Positions 776-58,461 of a stretch of 64,000 nt of DNA are shown here, one piece after another. The notes under the pieces were generated by a model. The model had not been told where the DNA came from and made no database searches. It saw nothing but the letters and a program-made list of their open reading frames with translations. A program made the translations under genes and the position numbers. This DNA comes from Ginglymostoma cirratum (Eukaryota): assembly GCA_024137785.1 (NCBI GenBank), contig JAHRHZ010000058.1:17562599-17626598 (forward strand), in the 5' to 3' direction. The first letter of the stretch is position 1. Every line of letters starts with the position of its first letter.

Positions 776-985
776 CGAAGATACCACGAACTGCAAATGC
801 TAGAGTCAGAGTCAACACAGTATGGAGCTGGAGGGACACAGTTGGTCAGGCAGCATCAGAGCCGCAGGAAAGTCAATGTTTCGGGTTGGGACCCTTTTTG
901 TTCTGAAGAAGGGTCCCAACCTGAAACATCGACTTTCCTGCACCTCTGATGCTGCCTGACCTGCTGTTTTCCTCCAGCTCCACGA
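776..985. mobile_element. Palindromic mini-PLE (two inverted 3' tails + hammerhead)
   Basis: Arms such as ggtcaggcagcatcaga / tctgatgctgcctgacc are centred near 898. Candidate TSD CAATAAAAATAT (764-775) / CAATAACAATAT (986-997). Confidence 0.8.
900..933 (+). ncRNA. Minimal hammerhead ribozyme-like motif, third subfamily
   Basis: gtt-CTGAAGA-a-GGGT(CCCA)ACCT-GAAA-c-ATC^gac. Confidence 0.6.
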
Positions 986-2274
986 CAATAACAATATAGT
1001 CTGTGTGTATCGGATCTTTAATAGAACAATTGGATAGCCCACGTTGGCTTCAGCAACAGGCCTGAATGAACTTTTAATTCTTTTGCCTGCTTCTTGGGGA
1101 TATATAGCCTTGCTGCACCTTGGCTTTGACACCATACCAAATCTTGCCTCCGGGAAAGTGGCCCAGGGCCAGATGGAGCCAAGGAGCTGCCACACTGGCT
1201 AGCATCTGTCTGTATTCCAGGTCCCAACAGGGTTTCAAAATCCTTCATTTGATGCTATTCATGGAAAGAAATGCTGTAACACTATTATTATGATTTTTAA
1301 TCCGAATGGGGCATGTTAAAGTTTCTTTAGTCAGACAAGTACATGTTCCTTTCGATTACACTTATGCAGCATCTTTGTACAATTTTCACCCTGCAGGTGC
1401 TACCTTTGTCTTGTACTCTTAGTATTTTTGGGAACTAAAAAGAAATGAGTTAGCATGGTCAATATCCAGTTGGCCCCAATTAGAAAGCAAATACCTAAAA
1501 TTTTATGTTAATTTATGGAGGATCCTTAATAGCCAGGTAAGTATTGATATCAACCAATGTCATTCTAAACTAAGCTTATAAAGTCAGAGGTTCAACCTGT
1601 GGTCAACGCTAAATCACCTGATGTCTGCGAGGACAACAATACAGGCACTAGAATCAACTTCGGTGCGCGAGGGAAAAGATAGTTGCATCTCTAATTAGTG
1701 ATCATTGTGTGATAACCTTAATTTGACTTGAAAAACAGAGAAAAGATGCCAGGACACATATAACCCACAGGATTTATAACCTTTTAATATTTATACTAGA
1801 AGAACAGATGTTAGTGAGTGAGGTAGAGAGAAAAGAAGAGCCATTTATAGTTTCAATAGTTATTTAGAAAAGAAATATTCAGATATTATCAACTTGATCT
1901 TCATTAGCATGCAAGCATCCAAATAATATTTGGCATCTTTTTAATAAAATGAAGGGTAAGTCTGGAGTGTGGCCGTTCTGAAGTGAGAAACAATTTAAGC
2001 AATCTCTTTTAATTGCAGTACAGTAAATAACTCTCTTTCTCTCCATGTTTATCACAATTCGCAAAAATATCTAATGTAAATTTGCCACGTGAATCACACA
2101 TCAAGGGATTCAGGAGTGAACTATAATTTGAATCACATAGTTGTCCTTTTCACTCTTTAGCAATCAAAATGTTCAGAATGAAAAATTGACTTGCATAATG
2201 TGATTGAAACAGTGATAAAATTTTGTTCCCCTGTGAAATATTATTTAGTTGTTGAATTTTTTATTGCTTAACAG

Positions 2275-2556
2275 TCCGGCCAACTATTAGTAATAGTGGA
2301 AGTCGCCTGAATGAAGTCGCTGTTATTCGGGGGAATGACATTACCTTAGAGTGTAAGACCCAAGGAATTCCTCGTCCTGCACTGACATGGATGAAAGATG
2401 GCCGTCCTCTTGTGAATAGCAAAAGAGTGAGCATCCTGAATGATGGACAGCTACTACGGGTTCAGAATGCACAGATTTTTGACACTGGCCGCTATGTGTG
2501 TGTGGCTGAGAGTGTAGCAGGACAGGTTGATAAGAAATATGACCTCAACGTAAATG
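2275..2556 (+). CDS. HMCN1: HMCN1 exon (complete Ig domain), phase 1-1
   Basis: taacag|TCCGGCCA...GTAAATG|gtaagt; VRPTISNSGSRLNEVAVIRGNDITLECKTQGIPRPALTWMKDG...DTGRYVCVAESVAGQVDKKYDLNVN; 282 nt. Confidence 0.95.
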
Positions 2557-4200
2557 GTAAGTAGAAATTTAATGCATCTACTAGTTAAATTGAAGTGATC
2601 CTGTGGTCTGTATATTTAAAATATGATACATCAAAGTTTTTCAACATCGTGGAATGCACCGACATGGATTCCTAATTGCCACTACATGTTAGCTGTTTTC
2701 CTCAATGGTCATATCACTGATAATGAAATTTAGCAATAAAAATCTTTTATAAATTATTTCTTATTATTTTTCAAACAAAATTCCCACTGGCTTTTTGTTT
2801 TAAAACAACCAAAACTTTGTACATACATTTAGCCAGTTAGTTCCTAGCCTGAACCAATCCAAGGAACAATGGGAGCATTTATTTTGACGTTGAGAGTCTG
2901 GAATTTAGATACCTGAAAGATCTAAGTAATCCCCTATTTTGCCAATATTTCCAAACAATATTCAATACTACCTGAATAATGAGGAGCCATGTTTGCGTCT
3001 TTCTATCTGGAAGAAGGACCAATTTCAAGAAACATGAAAGTAACTTAACTTTTTTGACAGCATAGAGTGAATTCAGAATATAAGGGTCTGACTTGCTGCA
3101 TTGGCAATTGAAAAGTTTAAAGTGGCACTAATGGAAGACATGCATTTGGTTATGAATTATCCAAGTACTAGATTATTAGGGACAAATATTCTAGTTGGAG
3201 TTCAGGGAACTTTGTAGAATGTGATGAGAAGAATCAAATACAAACATTTCAATCATGGACATTTATTTACAGGTCTACATGTGTGGCAGTTGACCACATT
3301 CTAAACTTTGTCTGGCTAGAATGTTCTCATTTTATGATGTTGTGATCCCAGCTGATGTTAAGAGACAAGGCAGATTCCAGATTTTAACCTGGATTCATAG
3401 ATCTTTTTGTTTTAATTTTAATTAACAAGGCAGTCACACGGGGCTTTAGTACACAAACAGAGTCTTGTTACCCAAACGATGAAAACAAAGCTAAAACCAA
3501 GCCATCTGGATATAGAACACAATTAGAAAAATCTTAAAACGTCTGGCTAGAAAATGTTTCAACCTACATTCCAACACCATCAGTTTACAGTGCTTCAAAC
3601 CCAGAGAAATGACACCTGAACATTAAATATTGAGGTTTGATTTGACTGATTCTCCTCATTTTTAACCTGTGAACTGTGAAGGTGTTTCACATGAATATTC
3701 ACAAAACTGTGAGCTTAGACTTTCTCAGCTTCTAATCACCTATAGATTTCTAACCAAACACTCCTCGTCTAGAAATTACACCAACAAAAAATTTTCTACT
3801 GAAGTAACTTATTGCTTTAATTATTCAGGGGCAGGGTGGGGTCAGAGGTAAGAATATCTACTTTCTAGGAGTAGGATTATCCTTAACTTTCAGTCAGGCC
3901 CCTTCTGAACTGTTCTAAAACCTTTCGACCTCTGAGTTTTCTAAACTAAAAATCAATTGTTGATTATTCCAAACTGAAACAAGTTAATCGCCTTCAATGC
4001 TTGTCGGCCATAAATCATCCAAGTGTGAACAAATTTCCATTAACACTTCAGAGATCTGAAATCACTTGTTCTCTGACACATACTGAATTTGGTCACAGTT
4101 CCAGAAGGACTGTAAACACTTCACAAAAGTAACTGGCACCCAGGTGCCACTATTTTGAAAAATGATTTTATAATGTGCATGATATATGATATATATTTAT

Positions 4201-4202
<2 letters not shown>

Positions 4203-4250
<48 letters not shown>
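4203..4250. repeat. (TG)n microsatellite preceded by (AT)-rich repeats
   Basis: tgtgtgtg... with two tgtt interruptions. Confidence 0.95.
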
Positions 4251-4251
<1 letters not shown>

Positions 4252-5067
4252 CCCAATCTTTATCATGCTGTAAACAGAGAGAGAGAAAGACATAAAATCA
4301 AACACTTCTCAAAAATCAAGGCAAAAAATTTGGAAAGAGTCCTCCTGACTGCACTTATGTAATACATAGTCATTAGTTTTAGAGCAACATTTGAAATATA
4401 GTAATGTATGTCAATGATGATCATATGACTCTGACATCAACCATCAAGATTAAGGTAAGATATCAGACTAAGAATTGCACGTGAAGAGATCAGTCTTGGA
4501 TACCAGACCAAAGTGCTGTATGTAGAAATTTGCAACGTACAGATGTAAATAAGAGAGTATTACAGTATATCAGGGGTGGAAGAACCTTACTTAAAGAACC
4601 AGTCGCCTCTAGCAGAGTATATATGTAGACACCAACAGCACGGAGATAGACCTAACTATGTTAGGGAGCAGTATTAACATAAAATAAGACAACATTGTCC
4701 TACCATTTTATGTGAGATGTCTTTGTGATGCAAAGAAATCTGAAGAAAGGAAAACAAATTAGAGTATTAAATGTGAGAAATCTTTTTGACTCAGTAGTGT
4801 AGGAATAGTGAGTTATCAACGACCTCAGTTCAGTCCTGACCTTTGAGGTATTAATCAATTATTGGCATAATAATATGCAATGTACTTAACCTTTAAGGTT
4901 ATCTGGCAAAGCATTGAAGCATTCATTGGTGCTATTATTATTCACATTGAAACTATTTTATAGAGATAGAGTTTTTGTTTCATTTTGATTAATGGTCGAT
5001 TAATTGTAAAAATGTAATTGATTATCTATTTGTTTCCATCAGTTGATTTTCAAATCTTTTCTCTTAG

Positions 5068-5235
5068 TGCCACCAAGTATTAATGGAGCCCAGAGAGTAC
5101 CAGAGAACATCAGTGTCGTGGTTAACAATCCTGTGGTGTTGACCTGTGAAGCCTCTGGCATCCCTCTTCCATCGATCACTTGGTTGAAAAACGGACAGCC
5201 AATCAGCCTGAACAAGGCTTTCAGAATTCTCTCCG
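5068..5235 (+). CDS. HMCN1: HMCN1 exon (Ig N-half), phase 1-1
   Basis: tcttag|TGCCACCA...CTCTCCG|gtaagc; VPPSINGAQRVPENISVVVNNPVVLTCEASGIPLPSITWLKNGQPISLNKAFRILS; 168 nt. Confidence 0.95.
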
Positions 5236-5639
5236 GTAAGCATGATACAAGTGACTATCATTTACGTTTGTACTTTTACAAAAGAACGCTACAAAATTGT
5301 GTAAGCTGTGCCTTGCACAATAACTAAACAATTCAAGAATCTATTAATATACATATATCTAAGAGAGGATAATTGCCAGGGAACAGGAGCCATTTTGACT
5401 ATGATCAAAAGCATATAATGCTGTTTTTGGAGAACTCTAAATTTAACCTTTTTCTAACTTTTTTCCCAATTGCACTGTTGACATAACTGCAACTATAGTT
5501 TTTTTTTTCTTCTGTGGCATATTTTCTCCTCGTGAAAAGAAACATTGTTCCTACCTAATTGTTGATTTATTGGAAGTATTCGAACATTGACATATTTTAA
5601 GTTCAAACAAAATGGACGCATATGACAGATGCCAGATTC

Positions 5640-6890
5640 AGAATAGAAATAAGAATCAAAATTTTAAATGAAGTGAAAAATTTAAAAGAAATAAAAAGTG
5701 GAAGAAGGAATTGACTGCTGACATAAAAGAAAATCCTAAAGTCCTGTAAAGGACATATTTAAAAGGAAAAAGATGGTAAAAGGAGAGGAGTCTGGCTAAT
5801 TTAAGGCCCAAAAGGGACATTTTGCATGGAAGCAAGATATATGCCTGAGCTTTAACAGGAGGATCTTGCATTTGTGTTTACAAAAGAAGATGATGCTACC
5901 AAGGTCAGAGTGAAGGAGAGGTTAAAGCAGACTACTGCAGATGCTGGAATCTGTACTAAAAACAAGAAGTGCTGGAAATCGCGGCAGGTCACGCATGAGA
6001 GAGAGAGAGCAAGCTAACATTTTGAACCTAAATGACTCTTTATCAGAGATGATCAAGTGTCATCTAGACTTAGATTGCTTTCTGTCTCCATGGATGCTGC
6101 TTGTCCCACTGTGATTTCCAGCACTACTTGTTTTCAGTGAAAGAGAAGCTAGTCGAAACATCGGATGAATTAAAAATTGATAGAGGTACATTAGATAGGC
6201 TGAAGGTATTGGAGGAAGTAAGAGTGGGAAATGTGGAAGCAATGACCATGATCTTCCATTCCTCCTTAGTTACAGGAATGGCCACAAGAATGGGCAATTC
6301 CAATTGTTCAAAACATGGATGTGAAGATATGCCCAGCAACTATACGTCCATCAGTTTAAACTTGGTGGTAGGAAAGCTTTCAGGAATGATGATTTGAGAC
6401 AAAATTAAGAGTTATTTTGTCAACTGTGAATTAAGTTAGGCCAAACAAGTTTAGATTTGCTAAGGGGACTTCGTGTTTACCTAACTCAATGGAATTTTCC
6501 AAAGTAGGTTGATGAGAGACTAGGGGAAGGTATATGGTGGAATTCCCCAGTGGTCTGTTTCTGGACGACTGCTCTCCTTGATCTGTATTAATGACTTGAA
6601 CTTGGGTGTGTAGGGTGTAATTTTAAAGTTTGCAGATGATACAAAACTTGTAAGTATCAAAAAAATTGCAGAGAATAGTGATGGACTTCAAGAGGATGTC
6701 AACAGGCTGGTGGAATGGGCAAACACATGACAGATACAAGTTAACACAGCGAAGTGTGGTAGGAAGAATGGAGAAGTAATATAAAATAAAGGGTACAATT
6801 CTAAAGGTATTGCAGAAGCAGAGGGATCTAGGGGTACGTGTACAGAAGTCACTGAAGCTAGCAGAGCTGGTTGACCATACAGTTAGCAAG
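5640..6890 (+). mobile_element. Degenerate CR1-type LINE ORF2 fragment (internally deleted)
   Basis: NYRPVSL-like ccagcaactatacgtccatcagttt, SCLTNL-like tcgtgtttacctaactc, FADD-like aagtttgcagatgatacaaaac. Confidence 0.75.
5925..6135. mobile_element. Palindromic mini-PLE inserted into a CR1 fragment
   Basis: ctgcagatgctggaatc tail; arms aagtgctggaaatc / gatttccagcact; decayed hammerhead at centre. TSD AGTGAAGGAGAGGTTA (5909-5924) / AGTGAAAGAGAAGCTA (6136-6151), 13/16. Confidence 0.75.
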
Positions 6891-7469
6891 CCTGTCAGAT
6901 CTGCGATGTTCAGTTGTAAGACCTAAGTCAATTACAATTATACACATAGTCTGAGGATGCCAATCTAAAAGATCCTTTGGTCTTGATGAGTTACAAGATC
7001 ACTTCGGGTACATGTATGTTTTAGAATTTTCACAAAATTATTAAGTTTATTACGATAACCACGGAAGAATGATACTTAATGAGGCACTGGTTCCTTTAGT
7101 TCAGAGCACCAGCTGGCTGGGTGCGTGCCTCTCATTCTGTTGAATGAATTTGATGTTTTTGCATATCTAACCACTAGAAGTTACTGCTTGCTAGCTTCTT
7201 TCCTGTAAAGCATCCTGAATTCTGGCTTACCAATGCATGAGAACCACAAGATCAATCTTAGTTAGGTGAAGCAGTGTGTGCCTAATCAATGATTGGTTTC
7301 TTAAATGTGATGGCCATCTTACCACTATCATTTCCAACTAACTCCTGATAAGTTCCCTAAAATGTCAGTCATTTTATAGAAGTGTATTTTTCCTTACAGC
7401 TTATCTCTATTAATAGAATCGTAAACTTTGTAACCTGTTACAAAGATAAAGGGGCAGCATCAACATACT

Positions 7470-7715
7470 AAGTAAAAACCAAAAGAACTGTGGATGCTGT
7501 AAATCAGGAACAAGAACAGAAGTTGCTGGAAATGCTCAGCAGGTCTGGCAGCATCTGTGAAGAAAAAAATCAGAGTTGACGTTTCTGGTCGAGTGACCCT
7601 TTCTGAGAGGGGTCAGTCCTGAGGAAGGGACACTGGACCCAAAACGTTAACTCTGATTGTTTTTTCTTCATGGATGCTGCCAGACCTGCTGAGCTTTTCC
7701 AGCACCTTCTGTTTT
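7470..7715. mobile_element. Palindromic mini-PLE
   Basis: Arms gctcagcaggtctggcagcatc / gatgctgccagacctgctgagc; CTGAGGA...AAAACGTT decayed hammerhead. TSD AGCATCAACATACT (7456-7469) / AGCACCAAAATATT (7716-7729), 11/14. Confidence 0.8.
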
Positions 7716-10479: not shown

Positions 10480-11200
10480 TTGTGGTAACTGGCTTAATTT
10501 TCACTCATTAAGCCTCCGACCAGCCAGCATTTCTCTGATCTCTTCTTCCTCTATGCAGTGAGTGCAGAGTATAGATGGTATCGTGCAGATGATCCCACTT
10601 TGACACAATGCTCTGGCCTTGAGGGTTGTTCTCCAAAAGAACCTGATTGAGGGTGTTGAGGATATCCTAGGACCTTTCTGGGTCAATGGTACAGCAAGGA
10701 CTGAGAATGACATTTCTTCTTGAGGTGGGATTTTTTCATTGGTCATCAGTAAGGCATGATCCTTGTGTTCCAGCTTGCAAGACAAAAGACTGGTGCCTTC
10801 TTTGTTGAATTAGTCTTGCGTAGATTAGTGACCCACCTATTGATGTTGAAGCAAGCAGGCAGTGGCAGAACAGGACTTAACAAATTGGGAATGCCCAACT
10901 TCAGGTGGGTGGGTCTCCTACCAACAGATGTAACCCTTGGTGCTTGTGTTCGTGCCTTATGCCAACTGAGTGAGCGCTCATCAGTGGTAACTGTTTCTTC
11001 ATCTGTCGTACTACTGTAAACCACCAAGTTTGAGTGTCCTTTCCAGGACACAGCCCGGGCAAGTAACTGTGGAGACCCCGAGTTGCCCAAGCATGCGGAT
11101 GACCCTTGTCAGCATTGCTATTGTGGTCCAAAGGAAAGGATGAAACCTGCAATTTTGGTATCAGCTCTGTTGCAGGAATTTCTAGAAAGCAGAACGACCG
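10480..11200 (-). mobile_element. RTE-like LINE 5' region (5'UTR + start of APE domain), degenerate
   Basis: ORF 10746-11090 ends ...KKAPVFCLASWNTR, typical of an APE N-terminus; downstream frames are broken. Confidence 0.5.
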
Positions 11201-20470: not shown

Positions 20471-20585
20471 CAGTATTACTCTTTGTTGTAAGACACTATT
20501 CATATTGATTCTAAATTTATAGCGAAGATAACTAAACGTTTAAATCAGCTTTATTACATATTTGCATTTGTATTTCGCTATCCAG

Positions 20586-21240: not shown

Positions 21241-21469
21241 GCCAGAATCTTACACTGCTCTGGGGGCAGATAGGCAGGAAGTATAAAATTAATGCAGTGC
21301 CACAAAATTGTTTTTGGAGCCTAGCCACCTTTCCCTACTCCTCCACAATTTCATTTGTAGCATTGGACAGTGGAACGATTGACAAGTAGCCAATTAATCA
21401 ACAGATGGAGATAACAAGCGTGGGGCTGGATGAACACAGCAGGTCAAGCAGCATCATAGGAGCAGGAAA

Positions 21470-21505
21470 ACTTGACGTTTCGGGCCTAGACCCTTCATCA
21501 GAAAT
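21470..21505 (-). ncRNA. Minimal type I hammerhead ribozyme (PLE-type)
   Basis: Reverse complement is identical to 23679-23714: atttCTGATGAagggtctaggcccGAAAcGTCaagt. Confidence 0.82.
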
Positions 21506-21773
21506 GGGGGAGGGGAAGAGGGTTCTGAAATAAATAGGGAGAGAGGGGGAGGCGGATAGAGGATGGATAGAGGAGAGGATAGGTGGAGAGGAGGCAGACA
21601 AGTCGAAGAGGCAGGGATGGAGCCAGTAAAGGTGAGTGTAGGTAGGGGGGTGGGGAGGAGATAGGTCAGTCCAGGCAGGACGGACAGGTCAAGGGGGCGG
21701 GATGATGTTAGTAGATAGGAGATGGGGGTGTGGCTTGAGGTGGGAGCAGGGGATAGGTGAGAGGAAAAATAGA

Positions 21774-22903
21774 TTAGGCAGGTGGAGATGAGCTGGGCTG
21801 GTTTTGGGATGCGGTTGAGGGAGGGGAGATTTTGAAGCTTGTGAAATCCACATTGATGCCATTGGGCTGCAGGGTTCCCAGGCTGAATATGATTTGCTGT
21901 TCCTGCAGCCTTCGGGTGGCATCACTGTGGCATTGCAGGAGGCCCAGGATGGACATGTCATCTGAGGAATGGGAGGGGGAGTTGAAATGGTTCGCGACTG
22001 GGAGGTGCAGTTGTTTGTTGCGAACTGAGCGCAGGTGTTCTGCAAAGCGGTCCCGAAGCCTCCGCTTGGTTTCCCCGATGTAGAGGAAGCCACAATGGGT
22101 ACAGCGGATGCAGTAGACCACATTGGCAGATGTGCAGGTGGACATCTGCCTGATGTGGAAAGTCTTCTTGGGGCCTGGGATTGGGGTGAGGGAGGAGGTG
22201 TGGGGGCAGGTGTAGCACTTCCTGCGGTTGCAGGGAAAAGTGCTGGGTGTGGTGCGGCTGGAGGGGAGTGTGGAGCGGACAAGGGAGTCGCGGAGGGAGT
22301 GGTCCCTCCAGAAGGCAGATAAGGGTGGGGAGGGAAAAATGTCTTTGGTGGTGGGGTCTGATTGCAGATGGCGGAAGTGTCGGAGGATGATGCGTTGGAT
22401 CCGGAGGTTGGTGGGATGGTATGTGAGGACGAGGGGGATTCCTTTTTGGTTATTATTGTGGGGACGGGGCGTGAGGGATGTGTTCCTGGAAATGCGGGAG
22501 ACACGGTCGAGGGCGTTCTCGACCACTGTTGGGGGGATGTTGCGGTCCTTGAAGAATGAGGACATTTGGAATGTATGGGAGTGGAATGTCTCATCCTGGG
22601 AGTAGATGCGGCGGAGGCAAAGGAATTGGGAATAGGGGATGGCATTTTTGCAGGAAGGTGGGTGGGAGGAGGTGTATTCCAGGTAGCTGTGGGAGTTAGT
22701 GGGCTTGAAGTGGACATCGGTTTCTAGGTGGTTACCCGAGATGGAGACAGAGAGGTCCAGGAAGGAGAGAGAAGTGTTGGAGATGGTCCAGGTGAACTTC
22801 AGGTTGGGGTGGAAGGCGTTGGTGAAGTGGATGAACTGTTCGAACTCCTCGTGGGAACACGAGGCGGCGCCGATGCAGTCATCAATGTAACGGAGGAAGA
22901 GGT
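21774..22903 (-). CDS. PLE ORF C-terminal part: RT (YIDD motif, thumb), Cys-rich linker, GIY-YIG endonuclease; 5'-truncated, no start
   Basis: Stop-free frame of about 376 codons: LFLRYIDDCI...SLSFLDL...VHFKPTNSHSYL...CNRRKCYTC...NVVYCIRCTHCGFLYIGETKRRLRDRFAEH...GTLQPNGINVDF. Confidence 0.9.
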
Positions 22904-23408
22904 GACTCCCTTGTCCGCTCCACACTCCCCTCCAGCCCCACCACACCCGGCACTTTTCCCTGCAACTGCAGGAAGTGCTACACCTGCCCCCACACCTCCT
23001 CCCTCACCCCAATCCCAGGCCCCAAGAAGACCTTCCACATCAGGCAGATTTTCACCTGCACATCTGCCAATGTGGTATACTGCATCCGCTGTACCCGTTG
23101 TGGCCTCCTCTACATCGGGGAAACCAAGCGGAGGCTTGGGGACCGCTTTGCAGAACACCTGCACTCAGTTCGCAACAAACAACTGCACCTCCCAGTCGCG
23201 AACCATTTCAACTCCCCCTCCCATTCCTCAGATGACATGTCCATCCTGGGCCTCCTGCGATGCCACCCGAAGGCTGCAGGAACAGCAAATCATATTCAGC
23301 CTGGGAACCCTGCAGCCCAATGGCATCAATGTGGATTTCACAAGCTTCAAAATCTCCCCTCCCCCAACCGCATCCCAAAACCAGCCCAGCTCATCTCCAC
23401 CTCCCTAA
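22904..23408 (+). pseudogene. Second, inverted copy of the PLE linker/GIY-YIG region with a frameshifting 11-nt deletion
   Basis: VYCIRCTRCGLLYIGETKRRLGDRFAEH is present. Near 23258 it reads cctcctgcgatgccaccc, whereas the other arm reads cctcctgcaatgccacagtgatgccaccc. Confidence 0.85.
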
Positions 23409-23678
23409 TCTGTTTTTCCTCTCACCTATCCCCTCCTCCCACCTCAAGCCACACCCCCATCTCCTATCTACTAACATCATCCCGCGCCCCCTTGACCTGT
23501 CCGTCCTCCCTGGACTGACCTATCTCCTCCCTACCCCCCTACCTACACTCACCTTTACTGGCTCCATCCCCGCCTCTTCGACTTGTCTGCCTCCTCTCCA
23601 CGTATCCTCTCCTCTATCCATCCTCTATCCGCCTCCCCCTCTCTCCCTATTTATTTCAGAACCCTCTTCCCCTCCCCC

Positions 23679-23714
23679 ATTTCTGATGAAGGGTCTAGGC
23701 CCGAAACGTCAAGT
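23679..23714 (+). ncRNA. Minimal type I hammerhead ribozyme (PLE-type)
   Basis: AUUU-CUGAUGA-A-GGGU(CUAG)GCCC-GAAA-C-GUC^AAGU. Full catalytic core, 4-bp stem II, 4-bp stem I, and a palindromic ACGU in place of stem III. Predicted cleavage after 23710. Confidence 0.82.
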
Positions 23715-25550
23715 TTTCCTGCTCCTGTGATGCTGCTTGACCTGCTGTGTTCATCCAGCCCCACGCTTGTTATCTCGGATTCTCCAGCATCTGCAGTACC
23801 TTTTATCCCCAGTCAACAGATGGAGGCCTTGTTCCATTCCTAACACACTTTTCCCACAGTCAACAGAGGGTGACATGAAGTCTGAAGGCTTTCAAATCTT
23901 ACTTTTCTAACTATTAATGGGAAAAAGAGGGAGAATACATCCTTTACATTTTCCTTGGCCTATCAGACGTCACTCCTAAAGTCTTTTGTTTCCTTCCATG
24001 TCATTGTATCCTAGACCCCATCCCCCCTGTGCCTGTTAGCCTGGCACCGCCAAACCTCTCTGAATATATTTCCCCATCTAGTTCCAGCAAAGATAACCAT
24101 CGGGGACTAGGTGCATGATTTGAGCCAGAGAACTGCTAGTCAGCTGTGCTCTGAGGTGACAGCTTTGTTTGTTACAGGTGGAAAAATGTTACCAAATATT
24201 TCCTTGATGAAGCAGATGCTTGATCCACTGCTCTTCACTCAGCTTCAGTTAGGAGAATTGCTTCTGAAGTTCCTAAGCAAATAAAATTTCCTGCTAAACC
24301 CCTTCTAAATCTCTCTCCCCATCCTGAGATAGCTTGTTTGCTGTACATGAGCTCTGTTCTTTCTCAAATTTGTTATTCAAAAGGAAATATCTAGTAGTTG
24401 CACTCGTGTTTCAGAGCAACTGATTTGTACTTAAACCTTGAAGTCAGCAAGAACTTTCTAAGTATCCTCCTTACAGATTTGTAAAACCTTATGAGAATTT
24501 ATACAAAGCACTAAACTCTTCTCTTGAAGCAATAGCTGAAAGAAATCAATGAGCAAACAATGTTTTAAGTATATAGTCATTTTAAAAATCACTGGTGGAG
24601 GTGGGTTTTTCCTGTTGGTGATCACGTGTTCAGCTTTGTAAATATAAGTTTGGAGAGTTGAGCTCAGCTGGTGTCAAAACAGTGTTGCATCCTGAAGATG
24701 GAGAAAATGAATCCAACCTCTTACCCACATATCTTTTCAAGTACGGCGATGAATTTAATGTTGGCAATAAATTTTTCTGTGTTCTGCCAGACCTTAAAGA
24801 TTGAGAATCAGGGAACCTTTTTGAATTACAGTTTTGGCAAGGATTTATGTGCATGCCAATGTCAGTGTTTGACTCCTTGGATGAAATGTGCCATTTTACA
24901 ATATCAAACTTAATTTGTTTGGCCAAAGCCCAGAAAAAGTCTGAATATTTGAACTCAGTGGAAATATTTTGCTTAAACACTATCATACAGCCAAACTATC
25001 CACATGGCATTCCTTCCAGAATACCAACAAATGGTCACTTGGACTGAAATCAAATGATAGATATGCCAAATGGTCTTTTATTGAATTAATTCTGGTGATG
25101 AGGAACGTCAGTCAGTTGGTAACTAAACTGGTGCACTTCAGGGTGACCATTAACAATTCTGAAAGATAGCAAACATAGCATGAAAGTTTATTTATTTTCA
25201 TTTTAATCAATGCATGTTTCACTATATAAGCAATTAGGAGAATGGTATATTTAGGTTGAGATGATTAGACTATTTTGCCTTTGCATATGATTTGACTATT
25301 ATGTTTTTGTATATAATTAGATTATGTTGTCTTTGTAATTCTATTTCATTTTATTGTGGTCATATATTTTATTACCATAATAATTGATATCTGACAAATA
25401 GCGCAACTGCTGTGTAATTCCTAGTTAAGACATATGACAACTTGCTTAAATGTGTAAGTGGAATGAAACTTCTAAACTATTAGAAAGTTTGATGTACTAC
25501 AAGAAAGCATGATTGATTTATTAATAAGTATCTAATTCCATACCCGTATT

Positions 25551-25657
25551 ATGCTGAGAAAATGCAATAAGTCTGGCAGCATCTGTGGAGAGAGAAAGAG
25601 AAGCCAGCACTCTCTGCTTTATTTCAGATTTCCAGCATCTGCAATATTTTGCTTTCA
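25551..25657. mobile_element. Internally deleted mini-PLE remnant
   Basis: gtctggcagcatctgtggagagag...tcagatttccagcatctgcaatattttgc matches the tails of the other copies. Confidence 0.6.
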
Positions 25658-29340: not shown

Positions 29341-29790
29341 AGGTAAAAAGAACTGTAGATGCTGGAGTCAGAGACAACACAGTATGGAGCTGGAAGAACA
29401 CAGCAGGTCAGGCAGCATCAGAGGAGTAGGAAAGGTGATGTTTCGAGTCAGGATCCTTCTTCCGAAATGGGGAGGGGGAAGGGACCTGGGAATAAATAGA
29501 GAGAGGAGGGGTGGGGCTGGGGAAGGTAGGTGCGTTGGTGATAATGAGTGCGGGTAGGGAGTGGTGGGAATTGGTCAGAGGAATGGGTGGGGCGAATAGT
29601 TGGGAGAGAAGATGGACAGTTGGTGTCAGGTCAAGGAGGCAGGGATGAGAGGGAGAGTTGGACATGGGTTAAGGCCAGGGGTGGGGAAATTTTAAAACTG
29701 GTGAATTCCATGTTTAGGCCATCGGGCTTGTAGTTTCCCAAGGCAAAATATGAGATGTTGCTCCTCCATTTTGCAGGTGGTGTCAGTATG
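29341..29790 (-). mobile_element. 5'-truncated PLE 3' end (related subfamily, includes ORF C-terminus and decayed hammerhead)
   Basis: Colinear with 21408-21925 (aataaatag.gagagg..., ggggaaattttaaaactggtgaattccatgtttaggccatcggg); hammerhead reverse complement atttcggaagaaggatcctgactcgaaacatc. Confidence 0.8.
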
Positions 29791-37262: not shown

Positions 37263-37360
37263 GAGATAACAAGCATGGGGCTGGATGAGCACAGCAGGTC
37301 AAGCAGCATCATAGGAGCAGGAAAACTTGACGTTTCGGGCCTAAACCCTTCATCAGAAAT
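37263..37360 (-). mobile_element. About 95-bp solo PLE tail (hammerhead-only insertion), same young subfamily as 21408-23812
   Basis: Near-identical to 21408-21505. TSD AGAAATTAAT at 37253-37262 and 37355-37364, the latter overlapping the element end. Confidence 0.88.
37325..37360 (-). ncRNA. Minimal hammerhead ribozyme, intact core
   Basis: Reverse complement atttCTGATGAagggtttaggcccGAAAcGTCaagt; differs from the 23679 motif only in loop II. Confidence 0.8.
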
Positions 37361-39790: not shown

Positions 39791-39796
39791 CATAGT

Positions 39797-41732: not shown

Positions 41733-41920
41733 CTCCTCCGACCATTAAAGGAGCTGATAGTGATTTACCAGAAGAAGTTATTGTGCTGATAAACAAGACT
41801 ACAATATTGGACTGTATGGTTAGTGGAACTCCCACTCCCAAAATCTCCTGGTTAAAGGATGGCCAGCCATTGAAAGCAGACAACACCCATAAAGTCCTGT
41901 CCAATGGACGAACCCTGCAG
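41733..41920 (+). CDS. HMCN1: HMCN1 exon (Ig N-part), phase 1-0
   Basis: acctag|CTCCTCCG...CTGCAG|gtgtgg; TPPTIKGADSDLPEEVIVLINKTTILDCMVSGTPTPKISWLKDGQPLKADNTHKVLSNGRTLQ; 188 nt. Confidence 0.94.
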
Positions 41921-48104: not shown

Positions 48105-48311
48105 AGCAGCACCTGTGAAGAAAAAAATCAGAGTTAACGTTTCAGGTCCGGTGACCACTCCTCAGAACTGTTTTGAAAAAGGGTCACCAGACGCAAAGTG
48201 TTAACTCTGATTTTTTTTCTTCATAGATGCTGCCAGACCTGCTGAGCTTTTTCCAGCAACTTGTTTTTGTTCCTGATTTGTGGCATTCGCAGTTCTTTCG
48301 GTTTTTATTTA
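48105..48311. mobile_element. Palindromic mini-PLE (same subfamily as 7470-7715, opposite orientation)
   Basis: Arms gaagaaaaaaatcagagttaac / gttaactctgattttttttcttc. Perfect 14-bp TSD GTAATCCATTCTAT (48091-48104, 48312-48325). Confidence 0.88.
48132..48169 (-). ncRNA. Minimal hammerhead ribozyme, second subfamily
   Basis: Reverse complement agtt-CTGAGGA-gt-GGTC(ACCG)GACC-t-GAAA-c-GTT^aact; perfect stem I AGUU/AACU. Confidence 0.7.
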
Positions 48312-48780
48312 GTAATCCATTCTATCTTCATTGGTCCCATTCTCCACTCTCCAAGAAAAATTCTCCAATATTTTCAATATTAAAATAAACCAACTTGGGT
48401 AATTTTATTATACATCCTGGCCAGGTTGATATATTTCCATGGTCTTCAGAACTCAAGAAACATGAAATTGATAATTTGCATAACTAATTACTCAAGTAAA
48501 GAAATTGAATATAGCAACTAATCAAAATGGAATGGCTGTAATATGACAACAATGGGTCTGAATAATGCAAACATGCTGAGTAGAGGACAGTATCAGTTTC
48601 TAAACAAATACTTTGTTGCAGAATTAACAATATTCTGCACTTTAACTTCTTAGAGTTTGTAAATAGAAGCAGACTTTGAAAATGATGTTTTGACACAACT
48701 GCAGAATTTATTCAGTGTTTTCACTTGGATTAATAGAACAATATTTTTTTGATTCTGAAATCTAGTTATCTTTCTCACAG

Positions 48781-51603: not shown

Positions 51604-51742
51604 GAGATCACAAGCGTGGGGCTGGATGAACAGGCCCGAAACGTCAAGTTTTCCTGCTCCTATGATGCTGCTTGACCTGCTGTGTTCATCCAGCCCCATG
51701 CTTGTGATCTCGGATTCTCCAGCGTCTGCAGTACCTTTTATC
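51604..51742. mobile_element. 139-bp inverted mini-PLE, same young subfamily as 21408-23812
   Basis: Short inverted arm gagatcacaagcgtggggctggatgaaca followed by a sense tail ending gcagtaccttttatc. Perfect 14-bp TSD AAGGAAGAGGGGAA (51590-51603, 51743-51756). Confidence 0.9.
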
Positions 51743-52189: not shown

Positions 52190-53215
52190 CCATACAGTTG
52201 TACAGAATGAAAGCAGACCCTTTGGTCCAACTCATCCATGCCAACCAGATATCCTAAATAAATCTAGTCCCATTTGCCTGCATTTGGCCCAAATCCTTCT
52301 AAACCTTCCCTATTCATATACTCATCCAGATGCCTTTTAAATGTTATAATTGTACCAGCCTCCTCCATTTCCTCTGGCAGTTCATTTCAGACACGTACCA
52401 CCTTCTGTGTGAAGCATTTGCCCCTTAGGTCCCTTTTAAATCTTTTCCCTCTCACCTTAAACATGTGTCATCTAGTTTTGGACTCTGCTGCCTCAGGAGA
52501 AAGGCCTTGTCTATTCACCTTATCCATACCCCTCATGATTTTATAAACCTCTAAGGTCACCCCTCGGCCTTCAGCGTTCCGGGGAAAATAGCCCCAGCCT
52601 GTTTAGCCTCTCCCTGTAGCTCAAACAGTCCTCCCCTGGCAACATCCTCATAAATCTTTTCTGAACCCTTTCAAGTTTCATAACATCCTTCCTATAGCAG
52701 GAAGACCAGAATTGTATGCAGTATTCCAAAAGTGGCCAAAGCAATGTCCTGTACAGCTGCAACATGACCTCCCAACTCTTATACTTATTGCACTGACCAA
52801 TAAAGGCAAGCATACCAAACAGCTTCTTCACTATCCTGTCTACCCAGAACTCTAATTTCAAGGAACTATGAACCTGCACTCCAAGGTCCGTTTGTTCAAC
52901 AACACTCTCCAGGGCCTTACCATTAAGTGTATAAGTCCTGCCCTGATTTGCCTTCGCAAAATGCAACACCTCACATTTATCTAAACTAAATTCCATCTGT
53001 CACTCCTCAGCCCATTGGCCCATCTGATCAAGATCCCATCATAATCTGAAGTAACCTCCTTCACTGTCCACTACACCTCCAATTTTGGTGTCATCTGCAG
53101 ATTTACTAACCACACCTCCTATGTTCACACCCCAGTCATTTGTATAAATCTCAAAATGCAATGAACCCAGCACTAATTCTTGCAGCACACCACTGGTCAC
53201 AAGCCTCCAGTCTGA
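52190..53215 (-). mobile_element. CR1/HER1-type LINE 3' end
   Basis: ORF 52571-52996 KCEVLHF...DLGVQV...LEYCIQFWS...ERVQKRF; same family as 27965-28775. Confidence 0.9.
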
Positions 53216-53362: not shown

Positions 53363-53492
53363 TGTTCTGAAGAAGTCATACCAGACTCAAAACATTAACT
53401 TTGTTTGTCTCTCTTCAGATGTTGCCAGACCTGCTGAATTTCTCCAGCATTCTCTGTTTCAGATTTTCAGCATTCACAAGAATTTTGTCTTT
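53363..53492 (+). mobile_element. Mini-PLE tail with decayed hammerhead
   Basis: gttCTGAAGAagtcataccagactcAAAAcattaac...gatgttgccagacctgctgaatttctccagcattc. Confidence 0.7.
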
Positions 53493-55129
53493 AATTGAGT
53501 CATTAATCACATTTCTCAAACAAAATTATAAGTATTGATGCATGATATGAATAAGTATGCACCCAGTTTGTAATAGTTAGTTGAACTCATTGTAACCTTG
53601 CATTAAGAGTGAGAATTTGGATGGGTTCAGATGTATATTTTTCAGATTAATAACTGGATATAGAAAGTAATTTTTGAAACATTGAACAAAGTAATTGAAC
53701 CATTAGATTTTAAATTATAGTTTGATTTTCACACATTAGGCCCCGTATAAGCATTATAATGAGAAATATCCAACAAGCCAGATTTAGATAGCAGAGAGAG
53801 CAGCTTCTGGTTTTAATAGCAGCCTCTAATGTAATATAAATCTTTTGGCCGTGGGAATGAGGATAATGAAGTGAAATGAGAGCTGCTCTTTTTACAAACT
53901 GTTGACAATCTGCTTGCGACTGGCTCAACTCCAATTTTGATCAGGAAGCCAATCCCAATTTAAATAAACAAATACAGATTGTTGACTAAATTATTCAGGT
54001 TGAAATGTTTATTCCAAGTAAGAAAAACTAGATGTATGCTGGAGGCGATTTTCTCGTATATACCTCTGGTCAGAAATGACAGTAATGAAAACCACATTTT
54101 AGGAAATTGTAGATGTACATATTGTAATTTTTAATTTTCATGCTTGTTATTTTCAACATGAACATAAAATGTGTTTGGCTTAAAAAGTATCACTGTGAAC
54201 AATCTGTTACTAACTAACATAATTCTTCCAAATGACAAAATGAAAGGACTACATTAATATTCATTTAGATTATTTTGTGCTTTAAAGAGCCCCTTTCATC
54301 CATCATAATAGAAAAATACACCGAGAATTCAACCTACCATGAAATAATTGTACCTGTCACTTGTTTTCAAGATGTAAAATTGGCATGTTTAATCAGAATA
54401 TAGCAACAACCTCAGCATTTGACCCTCTGCAAAGCCATGTAATTTGTCAAAATGTATTTCTTAAAATATCTTAAATCATTCTACTTAAGAAAATAAAAGC
54501 TCTTAGTACTATCGTCAGTAATTTCCATTCTGACTATCCAGCCAGTCCTGCCTCTCCACACCAATCTTGAACCCAAACAAATCAAGTAACAGTGTAAAGG
54601 GCAAGTTTAAAAAAAATGCCCATTTCAATATTCCATACTTCAGTTGCAATTGATAAATTCAAATTTTCTCAAAGGAATGTTTTCCCCTTTGCACAAAATC
54701 TGAAATTTCTCACTTTCCTTTATCTATTCTTCCTACAACCTTGATTTCTAATGAGACAGATTCAACTACTTGCTTTTTCCTTCCGCAATGCACATGCCCA
54801 GAACTGTTTCTTTCAAATCTGACCTCTTTCTCTACCGGCAGCAGGATAATTAGGACTGCATGCTCTAAATTCTAACTGCCATGGTTTTGATTCTCAATTT
54901 GAAAAAAATGCTCTCCATCTATCAAATTGCTCAACCAGTCCCTCACTTTTTATCTTTATCCTTACGCCCAGCCACATTAACCTTGCCAATATCAGTTCTT
55001 CTCGTTGTGTCACCCTCCCTCCAAATACAAAACTAGCAAACACGAAAGCGCCCTGTTGCACAAACAACTCAGCCAACCACCATCAAGTTTGGTTTTCTGA
55101 TAATAGGTTCTACCCAACCTCACTCTCCC

Positions 55130-55420: not shown

Positions 55421-56097
55421 ATAAAAAGTAGGACAGTGAAAGCTGTTTCTCGAGGGTGGAGGTACTGATATCCTTCATGATGGAGAGAATTCAGGGCTAG
55501 AGATAACACACTGTCTTTGTCAGCTTCAATCTGATTGTGGCTGATGCTAGAGTCACCATTTATCTAGATTTCAACTTCATCTGAATATAGCCTATTATGT
55601 ACACTGCCCCTCCATTTGTCCTATTCTTCATGGTTAAATCTTCAACCTTACGAGCCCCGCATTTTGAAATGTCTTCCATAAACTTTTTGATTTTCCTTTT
55701 TCCTCTGTGAGGTGAGTTGGGACATATTTTCTGCTAAATGTCAGGAAATCATAGTTTTGCTTGTACTCCTATCCAACATACAGGCTTTTTAAACCAAAAC
55801 TTAGAATTGTTTAATTGGCACTTAAAGGCTTCTCTTTGCTTTGCTCCTGTGGTTGCGTAAATATGTTGTGTCCTCCTATATGATGCTCAGTAAAAGAGTG
55901 AAGCATGTTGCTATTATCACATCCCTTTGGGAAGCCTGCTCAAAATGGCTTACTTCCAAATCTTCGGATTCTGCTTTAAGCAATGATATGATTGACAGCC
56001 AATCTGAAATTCCTTGTATTTTATTTTGCTTTTGGAGTAAAAATGCAATGTGGCTTGAGTCACATTTACAGTCTTCAATACTGTACTTCTTACACAG

Positions 56098-56300
56098 TTC
56101 CTCCGACCATTAAGGATCGGGCAGGGGATTCTCCTCAAGTAATCAGTATTCGCACTGGAAACACAGTCATAATGGAATGTGAATCAAATGCTGTACCACC
56201 ACCTGTCATCACCTGGTTTAAGAATGGACGGCCAGTCACAGAATCCAACAATATTCGTACTCTTGCCGGTGGGCAAATGCTGGAGATCACAGGGGCAGAG
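56098..56300 (+). CDS. HMCN1: HMCN1 exon (Ig N-part), phase 1-0
   Basis: acacag|TTCCTCCG...GCAGAG|gtaaga; VPPTIKDRAGDSPQVISIRTGNTVIMECESNAVPPPVITWFKNGRPVTESNNIRTLAGGQMLEITGAE; 203 nt. Confidence 0.95.
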
Positions 56301-56439
56301 GTAAGACTTTTCAAAGCAAAAAGTACAAGTGAAAGCCGATGATGCAATAATCCTATAAACATGTTACAGATATAGTTCCAAAATTCAGATATGCAGTCCC
56401 ATCATTTCATCACTATAGTTGCCCTTTTCTCATCAAACT

Positions 56440-56782
56440 GGGGAGGCAATGGCCCAGTAGTATTATCACTTGGCTGTTAATCCAAAGACCAAACAACATT
56501 CTGGGGACTTAGGTTCGAATCCCATCATGGCAGATGGTGGAATTTGAATTCAATAAATATCTGGAATTTAGAATCTAATGATGACCGTGAATCCATTGTC
56601 GATTGTCAGAAAAACCTACCTGGTTCACTAATGTCCTTTAGGGAAGGAAACTGTCATCCTTACCTGGTCTGGTCTACATGTGACTCCGGACCCACAGCAA
56701 AGTGGTTAACTCTTAACTGCTCTCTGAGCAATTAGAGATGGGCAATAATATTGCCTTATCCCGTGAATGAATTTTAAAAAAA
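56440..56782 (+). mobile_element. tRNA-derived SINE (second family)
   Basis: Head ggaggcaatggcccagtagt...ggttcgaatccc (B box), body, and tail aattagagatgggcaataa...tgaatgaattttaaaaaaa; related 5'-truncated copy at 14910-15142. Confidence 0.8.
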
Positions 56783-57304
56783 GCTATTCCACAGCGCATG
56801 TGCAGAATTTTGCTCCTGGCTATGCCACATGACGTATTTTGGTGAATGCGTTAGTATACCCACAGGGACTGTTTGCCTGAAGTATGCAGAGTAGTTTAGT
56901 CGTGATGTCAGTTGATATATAAACACGGAATAAGCTGCCAGAAGGAGAAAGGAGAGGAGCTCTGAGTAATTGTCCTAAATTACCTGAGCACAGAACAATG
57001 TGGTTGTTGTCTCTGCTTTACTCAGCCTGGTTAGGATGGTAAAGCCAGTGTCTTTGAAGGTGACCACGGTGAAGAGCTTTTATATATCTGGCTAATTTCT
57101 TTGTTCCAGTGGCAATTTCTCATCTCACATTTTTAGATATTTGAGTTGACCAGGCATGTTTAAACCATTCCTATTCTGGCATTGAATTGCCCATTTCAAT
57201 TCAGTCCAGCTTCAGTCAAGGTATAATCCTTTCAAAGTGACTTCAGGATGAGCTTTTTATTAATTCTCCATACTTAACAAAAGACTACAGAAACAACATC
57301 TGAA

Positions 57305-57865
57305 CAAGGAACAAGAGTAGTCCTTTCAGCCCGAAGAGCCTGCTCTACAATTCAATAAGATCATGGCCAATCTGATTTTAACCTCAACTCTCTCTATTCT
57401 TGTATAACCCTGATAATCTTTCATCCGCTTGATAATCAAGAATCTACCTCTGCCTTAAAAATGTCTAAAGATTCTTCATCCACTGTCTTTTGAGGAAGGG
57501 AATTCAAAAGCTTCTCAAAACTCAAAGAAAAAATGGTTTTCTCATCTCTATCATAAATTGATGACCCCCTTAATTTTAAACTATGGCCCATTTCTCCCAC
57601 AAGAGAAAGCATCCTTTTGACATCCAAATCAGGATCTTGTTGGTTTCAATTATGTTACCTTTGACTGTTCTAAAAATGCAAAGGATACAAGCTTAGTCTG
57701 GTCCAGCCTTTGCTCATAAGGTAATCCATTCATTCCATGTATTAATCTAGTAGACATTCTCTGAACCGTTTCCAACCCATTAAGATCCTTCTGTAAGTAC
57801 AGTAACCAGTTCTGCAATAAGTACTCCAGATATGGTCTCACAAAAGCCCTGTATAGCTGAAGCTA
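57305..57865 (-). mobile_element. CR1-type LINE 3' end
   Basis: ORFs 57650-57841 (RPYLEY...LETVQRMSTRLI.GM.GL.YEQRL) and 57436-57627 (GHSLKL...NSLPQ). Confidence 0.8.
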
Positions 57866-57949
57866 TTGCAAAATTTGTAATAGTTTCACACTTAAAGACA
57901 AACATTTCACCTGTGAGCCATTAATGCCAGCGGAAATCAAACATTCTCA

Positions 57950-58070
57950 TCACTCAACCTGAAACATTAATTCTGATTTCTCTCCACAGTTGCTGCCAGA
58001 CCCGCTGAGGTTTTCCTGCAATTTCTGTTTTTGTTTCTGATTTACAGCATCTGCAGTTCTTTCAGTTTTT
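57950..58070 (+). mobile_element. Mini-PLE tail fragment
   Basis: cctgaaacattaattctgatttctctccacagttgctgccagacccgctgagg...tttacagcatctgcagttcttt. Confidence 0.7.
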
Positions 58071-58243
58071 AAATTAGGAAAGAATTCAGAATAGATCTGA
58101 AAGTAGTTGTACTAACATTGAAAAGAGGTGAATTCAAATTATGAATTTCGCTGGACAGGTACAAAACAAAGACATTTAGCCTTCTTTGTTTATCCATCTA
58201 TAAAACTAACAGACCTCATCACAATATCCAACTATTTTGCAAA

Positions 58244-58461
58244 TTGAAGTAGAAAATGCTGGAAATACTCAGCTAGCCTGGCAGCAATTGCGGGGAGAGA
58301 AACAGTTTTAATGTTTCAGATTGATGAACTGATAAAAGGTTATTCGCCTGAAACATTAATTCTGTTTCTTTCTCCCACAGATGCTGCCAAATTGATTTGA
58401 GTATTTCCAGCATTTTCTGTTTTCACTTCAGATTTCCAGCATCTGCTGTACTTTGTTCTTG
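58244..58461. mobile_element. Palindromic mini-PLE (older)
   Basis: Arms agaaaatgctggaaatactca / tgagtatttccagcattttct; central decayed hammerhead CTGATAA...CCTGAAACATT. Confidence 0.75.

What the first reader, a model, noticed from the sequence alone, without database searches (positions are those of the whole stretch)
776..58461. A dispersed family of tiny hammerhead-ribozyme 'fold-back' retroelements (mini-PLEs) with 10-16-bp TSDs
Seen in sequence: about 11 short inserts (776, 5925, 7470, 25551, 29341, 37263, 48105, 51604, 53363, 57950, 58244) made of a hammerhead motif (CUGANGA...GAAAC-NUH, intact or decayed) plus a conserved tail (...GCUGCC/UUGACCUGCUG...CCAGCAUCUGCAG...). Several are palindromes of two inverted tails, and several have clear TSDs (perfect 14-bp at 48105 and 51604, 10-bp at 37263). 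They look like MITEs, but their sequence is the 3' end of the Penelope-like element at 21408-23812. Established: PLEs carry minimal type I hammerheads in their terminal repeats. Inference: these are either extreme 5'-truncated double-primed insertions or an independently amplifying non-autonomous ribozyme retroelement class (retrozyme-like). At roughly one copy per 6 kb here they could be very abundant in this genome and easily mis-annotated as DNA-transposon MITEs or SINEs.
Basis: partly seen in the sequence, partly recalled or inferred. Interest (0 to 1): 0.85.

Follow-up and report, generated by a model that had tools for sequence, protein, structure and literature searches.

The report
Short fold-back Penelope retrotransposon insertions
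These short hairpin-shaped repeats in shark introns are truncated insertions of known Penelope-type jumping genes, and their one unusual trait is that most of them stop at the front edge of the element's ribozyme.

Summary
The repeats are real. A profile search finds 12 insertions (20 arms) and none in a reversed control. Ten are 98-248 bp, 29341 is a 450-bp truncated copy reaching a GIY-YIG ORF, and the 2.4-kb element is itself two truncated copies head-to-head. The ORF is an elasmobranch Neptune-type PLE (84% to whale shark). All 8 two-armed insertions pair one arm carrying the ~31-nt tail with one lacking it. That is published PLE architecture (Craig 2021; Frangieh 2024; Cervera 2014 reported opposite-strand hammerhead pairs), not MITE TIRs. 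TSDs are 7-14 bp, in 8-9 of 12. Only 4 of 20 arms keep a hammerhead. No two junctions are identical, so independent double-primed insertions fit best; there are no tandem units, so these are not retrozymes. One feature I did not find in print: 11 of 20 arm 5' ends fall within 10 nt of the ribozyme's 5' edge, in all five sequence groups, and none at its cleavage site. This suggests a defined short RNA template or an RT stop.

The parts
776..985 (.). Fold-back, group B: tailed arm on minus (776-899), untailed arm on plus (900-982); TSD 764-775/986-997 (12 bp, 1 mismatch); near-intact hammerhead 899-934 (+)
5921..6138 (.). Fold-back, group E (old; arms 66-80% alike): tailed arm minus 5921-6049, untailed arm plus 6052-6138; TSD 5909-5919/6136-6146 (11 bp, 1 mismatch)
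7468..7715 (.). Fold-back, group C: tailed arm minus 7468-7609, untailed arm plus 7613-7715; possible TSD 7456-7467/7716-7727 (12 bp, 2 mismatches, p 0.06)
21408..22899 (-). Long insertion, untailed arm (group A): 5'-truncated Neptune-type PLE copy from the YIDD region of RT through the CX4CxxC linker and GIY-YIG to the 3' UTR and an intact minimal hammerhead (21470-21505)
22905..23812 (+). Long insertion, tailed arm (group A): shorter 5'-truncated copy, 96% identical to the other arm; intact hammerhead 23679-23714; 31-nt tail 23777-23807 plus 5 unassigned nt; TSD 21398-21410/23813-23825 (13 bp perfect, 3 nt shared with the element end)
25546..25657 (.). Small asymmetric fold-back, group D, no hammerhead: untailed arm minus 25546-25600 (holds sequence absent from the other arm), tailed arm plus 25602-25657; TSD 7 bp 25536-25542/25659-25665
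29341..29790 (-). Ordinary 450-bp 5'-truncated PLE copy, group B, tailed, with C-rich 3' UTR and the last ~37 codons of a GIY-YIG ORF; TSD 8 bp 29332-29339/29792-29799
37263..37360 (-). Solo untailed copy, group A, 98 bp, intact hammerhead 37325-37360; 5' end at the start of helix I; TSD 10 bp 37253-37262/37355-37364 with 6-nt microhomology
48105..48312 (.). Fold-back, group C: short untailed arm minus 48105-48169 (outer end ~45 nt short of the group-A site), tailed arm plus 48170-48312; perfect 14-bp TSD 48091-48104/48312-48325
51604..51742 (.). Asymmetric fold-back, group A: 29-nt untailed arm minus 51604-51632, tailed arm plus 51632-51742 starting inside helix II (no CUGANGA); perfect 14-bp TSD 51590-51603/51743-51756
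53364..53494 (+). Solo tailed copy, group D-like, decayed hammerhead, 5' end at helix I; no TSD found
57950..58076 (+). Solo tailed copy, group C/D, starts inside helix II (or at the core with a 7-nt deletion; ambiguous); no TSD found
58245..58465 (.). Fold-back, group D: untailed arm minus 58245-58331 (starts at helix II), tailed arm plus 58330-58465; no TSD found

Best explanation
Each insert is a separate, dead integration product of several age-stratified elasmobranch PLE families. The PLE RT/GIY-YIG protein nicks both target strands 7-14 bp apart (inferred from the TSDs). It primes reverse transcription at one or both nicks. When both are used, one cDNA starts at the distal start site (with the ~31-nt tail) and the other at the proximal site (no tail); two start sites and cutting/extension of both strands are shown in vitro for the anole PLE, and inferred here. 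The two cDNA ends are joined head-to-head, often with short microhomology, giving an inverted pair of any length from 112 bp to 2.4 kb. Solo copies are single-primed events. Most cDNAs end within 10 nt of the 5' edge of the uncleaved hammerhead (shown), and this is what makes near-symmetrical ~200-250-bp MITE look-alikes. The most likely cause of that boundary (inferred, about 0.5 within this model) is run-off at the 5' end of the RNA, when RT starts at the copy of the start sites near the transcript's 5' end or on a short pLTR-only transcript. The alternative is an RT stop on leaving the ribozyme in long mRNA.
For: Homology to an RT-thumb/GIY-YIG ORF in groups A and B. 8 of 8 two-armed insertions have exactly one tail (0.5^8 = 0.004 by my arithmetic if arms were independent), as in Craig 2021 Fig. 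2 and the two RT start sites of Frangieh 2024. In group A the untailed end is the same nucleotide in 3 of 3 arms, including the solo copy 37263, so it is a priming site. In the long element and in 25551 the untailed arm holds sequence absent from the tailed arm, so it is not a snap-back copy. TSDs vary in length. No shared junction among 8. 5' ends: 11 of the 14 arms that reach the core stop at offsets -6 to +3 from C3; binomial P 1.6e-9 with a hazard inflated from short arms only, and 7 of 9 per insertion, P 2e-6, or 3e-5 after x15 for window choice. 0 of 20 arms start at the cleavage site (about +28; read), matching Frangieh's result that uncleaved RNA is the template.
Against: Only three same-group pairs of two-armed insertions exist, so the junction test is weak. 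7470 and 48105 (group C) have junctions only about 4 nt apart. In the older groups the untailed outer ends scatter about 1-45 nt short of the group-A site, as 5' truncation of a palindromic template would also give. None of the 12 C/D/E arms extends beyond -6, against 3 of 8 A/B arms (Fisher p 0.049), and no ORF-bearing parent for C/D/E was found. In Drosophila Penelope the transcription start lies 46 nt before an intron that ends at the hammerhead, so run-off there would end further upstream than here. 5' offsets were set by eye (+/-2 nt), and group labels are approximate. Hammerhead covariation across groups did not beat the shuffle control (69 of 500).
Confidence: 0.68

Rival explanations
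1. Groups C/D/E are dedicated non-autonomous ~130-nt PLE-SINEs (hammerhead to tail), with their own master loci and a 5' end at helix I. They are mobilised in trans by PLE protein and inserted singly or as head-to-head pairs made de novo.
For: 0 of 12 C/D/E arms pass offset -6, against 3 of 8 A/B arms (p 0.049). No parent ORF was found. The sharp 5' boundary looks like a full-length end. Non-autonomous PLE derivatives are described (MRC1 in Craig 2021; retrozymes in Li 2026).
Against: The same boundary occurs in groups A (37263) and B (776), which have long ORF-bearing copies. The sample is one window. The protein search was a weak 47-aa query.
Confidence: 0.2
2. The whole palindrome is the amplifying unit: a fold-back master is transcribed, RT starts at the tail and copies through the loop into the inverted arm.
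For: Four near-symmetric junctions at the same position (776, 5925, 7470, 48105). Untailed outer ends vary in the older groups.
Against: The four belong to three or four groups and none is identical. The solo untailed copy and the exact group-A end show independent priming. Asymmetric pairs (51604, 25551, 58244, the long element) need de novo joining. By inference, a 100-bp RNA hairpin would mask the sequence the protein binds.
Confidence: 0.08
3. MITEs of a DNA transposon.
For: Inverted arms and small size.
Against: Arms are asymmetric (tail on one side only), TSDs are 7-14 bp and variable, solo arms exist, and the sequence is a PLE terminus.
Confidence: 0.01
4. Monomers of non-LTR retrozymes made from self-cleaved circular RNA.
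For: Type I minimal hammerhead and PLE kinship. Li 2026 reports retrozymes in the one chondrichthyan sampled, and dispersed monomers in Xenopus.
Against: No tandem units, no hammerhead-to-hammerhead unit, no end at the cleavage site, and the inverted tailed/untailed pairing is unexplained.
Confidence: 0.03

Closest known systems
EN+ Penelope-like elements, Neptune (or Nematis) type, with inverted 5'-truncated copies and one-sided tail (Craig et al. 2021, PMC8557442, Fig. 2)
   Same: C-terminal GIY-YIG, CX2-5CxxC linker, hammerhead near the 3' end, strong 5' truncation, adjacent inverted copy, 30-40-nt tail on one end, variable TSD.
   Different: No tandem pLTR or full ORF in the window; insertions are not in microsatellites; the 5' ends cluster sharply at the hammerhead edge, which I did not see described.
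Poseidon_Ac of the green anole (Frangieh et al. 2024, PMC11167929)
   Same: Two internal RT start sites defining the tail, both strands cut and extended, uncleaved RNA used; start sites about 100-140 nt downstream of the hammerhead.
   Different: Different clade (no linker Zn-finger in Penelope/Poseidon). Whether the shark ORF starts at the hammerhead is unknown; the ATG inside the group-A core is closed after 14 codons.
Dispersed min-HHRs of metazoan PLEs (Cervera and de la Pena 2014, PMC4209133)
   Same: Extra base after A9, 4-5-bp helix I, palindromic 15.2-16.2 pair with no helix III loop; solo motifs, and dual motifs 100-700 bp apart on opposite strands, read by the authors as truncated PLEs.
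   Different: Their dual motifs were in Schistosoma and further apart; here the cores nearly touch. Helix II here is 4-5 bp, not 7-8. No shark was named in the parts I read.
Animal non-LTR retrozymes (Li, Clavereau, Pollet 2026, bioRxiv 10.64898/2026.07.22.740005)
   Same: Non-coding, pLTR-derived, type I hammerhead, dispersed monomers exist.
   Different: Retrozymes are defined by direct tandem units, each with a hammerhead; these inserts are solo or inverted, carry TSDs and end at PLE priming sites.
MITEs
   Same: Short, non-coding, inverted arms.
   Different: No symmetric TIRs, no fixed TSD, retroelement origin.

Membership tests
EN+ PLE insertion | Linked to an RT + C-terminal GIY-YIG ORF | tested here: met
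   Groups A and B: Pfam GIY-YIG, RT-bearing homologues, 29341 tblastn. Groups C/D/E are linked only by terminus homology (47-68% to group A).
EN+ PLE insertion | Minimal type I hammerhead in the terminal repeat | tested here: met
   4 of 20 arms pass, 0 in 40 shuffles; the others are decayed or truncated. Cleavage activity was not tested.
EN+ PLE insertion | 30-40-nt tail on one end; inverted 5'-truncated copy | tested here: met
   31-nt tail in group A; 8 of 8 two-armed insertions have one tail.
EN+ PLE insertion | Variable-length TSD | tested here: met
   7-14 bp in 8 of 12, 1 borderline, 3 absent.
EN+ PLE insertion | Partial-tandem pLTR-ORF-pLTR master copy | not testable with these tools
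   None in the window; no shark genome was available (on prokaryotic genomes, found nothing).
Neptune/Nematis clade | CX2-5CxxC linker upstream of GIY-YIG | tested here: met
   CX4CxxC in the window ORF and in 9 of 11 homologues checked (absent in P0003 and P0005); definition.
Neptune/Nematis clade | Placement in an RT phylogeny with reference clades | not tested
   No labelled references were at hand, and the ORF lacks most of RT.
Non-LTR retrozyme | Direct tandem units, each with a hammerhead | tested here: not met
   No such array in the window; the copies are solo or inverted.
Non-LTR retrozyme | Unit bounded by self-cleavage; circular RNA | tested here: not met
   0 of 20 5' ends at the cleavage site; circular RNA itself is not testable here.
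MITE | Symmetric TIRs and fixed short TSD | tested here: not met
tRNA-SINE | tRNA-derived Pol III head | tested here: inconclusive
   ARAGORN found 0 genes, but it does not detect decayed SINE heads; the arms consist wholly of PLE terminus.
Independently amplifying non-autonomous PLE | Shared junctions or diagnostic mutations among short copies, absent from long copies | tested here: inconclusive
   No identical junction among 8, but only 3 same-group pairs.

The most novel reading that the evidence does not exclude
Shark genomes carry abundant non-autonomous ~130-nt ribozyme-headed PLE-SINEs (or run-off copies of the mRNA 5' end) whose RNA begins at hammerhead helix I. A dimeric PLE protein inserts two such RNAs at once, head-to-head, and so mass-produces MITE look-alike hairpins. 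The copies would then map the RNA's 5' end and both RT start sites at nucleotide resolution in thousands of events.
Probability: 0.3. Interest if true: 0.65.

Novelty: new member of a known kind. Interest (0 to 1): 0.38.

Why it matters
How PLEs make inverted repeats and one-sided tails is still open (Craig 2021 and Frangieh 2024 both say so). Very short two-armed insertions show both priming sites, the junction and the TSD within 250 bp. This window has 10 such short copies in 64 kb, and the family covers 7.1% of it. If that density is typical, a shark genome is a large natural dataset for testing two-RNA double priming and for finding what fixes the 5' end at the ribozyme. In practice, these hairpins can be mislabelled as MITEs or miRNA precursors (one scores E 2.5e-12 to a miRNA model, below its gathering cut-off). 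The architecture itself is known, so a specialist would be only moderately surprised.

Tried and rejected
Rfam scan: no hammerhead family hit. A DNA pattern scan and a protein-based locus scan of prokaryotic genome contigs for stray shark DNA found nothing, so no outside loci were obtained. tblastn of 123, then 264, fetched proteins against the termini, to see whether the ORF starts at the hammerhead or whether C/D/E have parents: only a zebra-shark gene model running into a group-A-like terminus (P0005, E 0.005); the rest were chance-level. A protein search with the open frame of a group-C arm gave no hit (weak test). PDB sequence search gave nothing significant. Folding of the terminus: z -0.39, no unusual stability; the monomer MFE forms helix II but not the hammerhead fold, and two copies pair through the palindromic helix II rather than the active dimer fold. 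Hammerhead covariation: 77% of cells paired against 19-46% for slid controls, but not above shuffles. Cleavage-defined 5' ends: rejected (0 of 20). Snap-back second-strand copying as the general mechanism: rejected for the long element and 25551. Annealing of cDNA ends through the short palindrome around CUGA in group C: fits the centre of only 1 of 4 symmetric junctions (5925; my reading). An excised-intron origin was considered because tails end in acceptor-like sequence, and dropped because group A has neither end.


Full report
Setting. The window has short plus-strand exons encoding Ig I-set domains (5 of 5 tested); by recall, untested, the host looks hemicentin-like. The ORF remnant at 21774-22900 (minus strand) has a GIY-YIG domain. 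Its best named homologues are from whale shark (84%) and zebra shark (80%), then rays and bamboo shark. A full-length relative carries Pfam RT (P0001, 44%). So the host is an elasmobranch, probably a carpet shark (inference). The CX4CxxC linker before GIY-YIG marks the Neptune/Nematis type as defined in Craig 2021.

Observation. blastn and a profile built from 17 arms recover the 11 listed sites and the long element, nothing else in 64 kb, and nothing in the reversed window. There are 12 insertions with 20 arms, 4572 bp or 7.1% of the window. Ten are 98-248 bp. 29341 is 450 bp and reaches the end of a GIY-YIG ORF. The long element is not a master: it is two 5'-truncated copies joined head-to-head (1492 and 903 bp, 96% identical) with a 13-bp TSD. 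The copies fall into about five groups. A (long element, 37263, 51604) is 96-99% identical. B (776, 29341) is about 72-81% like A. C, D and E are 47-68% like A over the core. Arm-to-arm identity runs from 97% to about 66-80%, so these are several waves of different age.

TSDs. Perfect 14 bp at 48105 and 51604, 13 bp at the long element, 10 bp at 37263, 8 bp at 29341 and 7 bp at 25551. There are 12 and 11 bp with one mismatch at 776 and 5925, 12 bp with two mismatches at 7470 (p 0.06), and none at 53363, 57950 and 58244 (null of 1500 random pairs). The boundaries were curated, so those p-values flatter. Under the wider null (11 loci, 29341 left out), five loci scored 9 or more, a level reached by 4 of 300 random pairs.

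Hammerhead. A descriptor for the minimal type I motif is met by 4 of 20 arms and by none of 40 shuffled windows. The intact motif has the traits listed by Cervera and de la Pena 2014: an extra base after A9, a 4-bp helix I and a palindromic helix III stub that needs a dimer. Among the 11 listed inserts only 37263 is intact and 776 nearly so; 51604 and 25551 lack CUGANGA. Pairing across 12 aligned arms (11 distinct) is 77%, against 19-46% for slid controls, but covariation does not beat shuffles.

Architecture. Every two-armed insertion (8 of 8) joins one arm that carries the tail (31 nt in group A) to one that does not. In group A the untailed end is the same nucleotide in 3 of 3 arms, one of which is a solo copy with its own TSD, so it is a priming site. 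In the long element and in 25551 the untailed arm has sequence the tailed arm lacks, so two cDNAs were primed separately. This is the published picture. Craig 2021 (passages) describes an inverted 5'-truncated copy and a 30-40-bp tail often at one end only. Frangieh 2024 (main-text parts 1-2 of 4) shows a PLE protein, predicted to be a dimer, that cuts and extends both strands, starts RT at two internal sites bounding the tail, and uses uncleaved RNA; its supplementary PDFs gave only figure lettering, so its Fig. S2 on genomic ends could bear on my claim below. Cervera 2014 (parts 1-2 of 4) reports dual hammerheads 100-700 bp apart on opposite strands and solo motifs as probably truncated PLEs. 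The TE curation guide (PMC8969392, passages) lists inverted pLTRs and short extensions as PLE peculiarities.

Independent events or an amplifying unit? No two of the 8 junctions are the same, and the three group-A insertions have three different structures. But only three same-group pairs exist, the group-C pair differs by about 4 nt at the junction, and the untailed outer ends of older groups scatter 1-45 nt. There are no tandem units, so the retrozyme definition used by Li, Clavereau and Pollet 2026 (parts 1-3 of 5; supplements closed) is not met. MITE is rejected.

The remaining anomaly. Of 20 arm 5' ends, 11 lie at -6 to +3 from C3 of the hammerhead core, 3 inside helix II, 3 further downstream and 3 hundreds of bases upstream. 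None is at the cleavage site. Of 14 arms that reach the core, 11 stop in that 10-nt window (binomial P 1.6e-9 with a hazard taken from short arms only; per insertion 7 of 9, P 2e-6, or 3e-5 after x15; offsets by eye, +/-2 nt). It occurs in all five groups, so it is not one master. For fold-backs the boundary is fixed by the junction itself; for solo copies the upstream DNA is not the C-rich PLE UTR. I infer either run-off at an RNA 5' end (priming at the start sites near the front of the transcript, or a short pLTR-only RNA) or an RT stop on leaving the ribozyme. For the first: in Drosophila Penelope an intron ends at helix I, both long copies here have an acceptor-like motif 22-24 nt upstream of the core, and two group-C arms read CAG just before it. 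Against it: Penelope's first exon is 46 nt (Schostak 2008, passages), longer than the few bases kept here. None of 12 C/D/E arms extends upstream, against 3 of 8 A/B arms (p 0.049), which keeps open that C/D/E are dedicated short elements. I did not find this boundary, or shark mini-PLEs, in ten full-text searches (other papers seen as listings only, and PMC6155905 and PMC4350176 as passages). The library lacks most subscription papers, and Dfam/Repbase were not available.

Verdict. The finding is real. It is mostly known PLE insertion architecture in new host families, with one specific and testable surplus, the fixed 5' boundary. Interest 0.38.

Noticed in passing
window 23640-23659 (+), its mirror in the minus arm, and 29486-29510 (-): A polypyrimidine tract plus acceptor-like AG lies 22-24 nt upstream of the hammerhead core in both long copies (groups A and B); possibly the 3' end of a pLTR intron, as in Drosophila Penelope.
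   Followed up: partly
window 7468, 48312, 58076, 58465: Tailed ends of four group C/D copies all finish in a T-rich run plus TTAG, acceptor-like; the group-A tail does not.
   Followed up: no
window 7570-7660: The two arms of 7470 differ in the helix II loop: one matches 57950, the other matches 48105. This could mean two different source RNAs; it rests on one site only.
   Followed up: partly
window 21408-22289 vs 22905-23776: The arms of the long element differ at 20 of 869 sites (8 transversions) plus an 11-nt and a 2-nt indel, but at only 1 site in the terminal ~165 nt; not significant by my estimate.
   Followed up: partly
window 2256-2564, 5022-5327, 20492-20806, 41699-42010, 55992-56342 (+): Exons of a many-Ig-domain gene (I-set hits); hemicentin-like by recall. 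All insertions appear to be intronic.
   Followed up: no
window 36395-36829, 52571-52999, 45210-45605, 10746-11108 (-): Open frames that look like CR1/L2-type LINE fragments by recall; no Pfam hit.
   Followed up: no
window 445-855, 38223-38666, 39791-40159: Related SINE-like repeats, resembling the shark HE1 type by recall; not tested.
   Followed up: no
window 825-980: The fold-back scores E 2.5e-12 to the miRNA model MIR8670, below its gathering cut-off: a risk of false miRNA annotation.
   Followed up: yes
proteins P0007, P0023, P0100, P0105: Several named ray and skate gene models include PLE-derived sequence, suggesting exonisation or misannotation.
   Followed up: no
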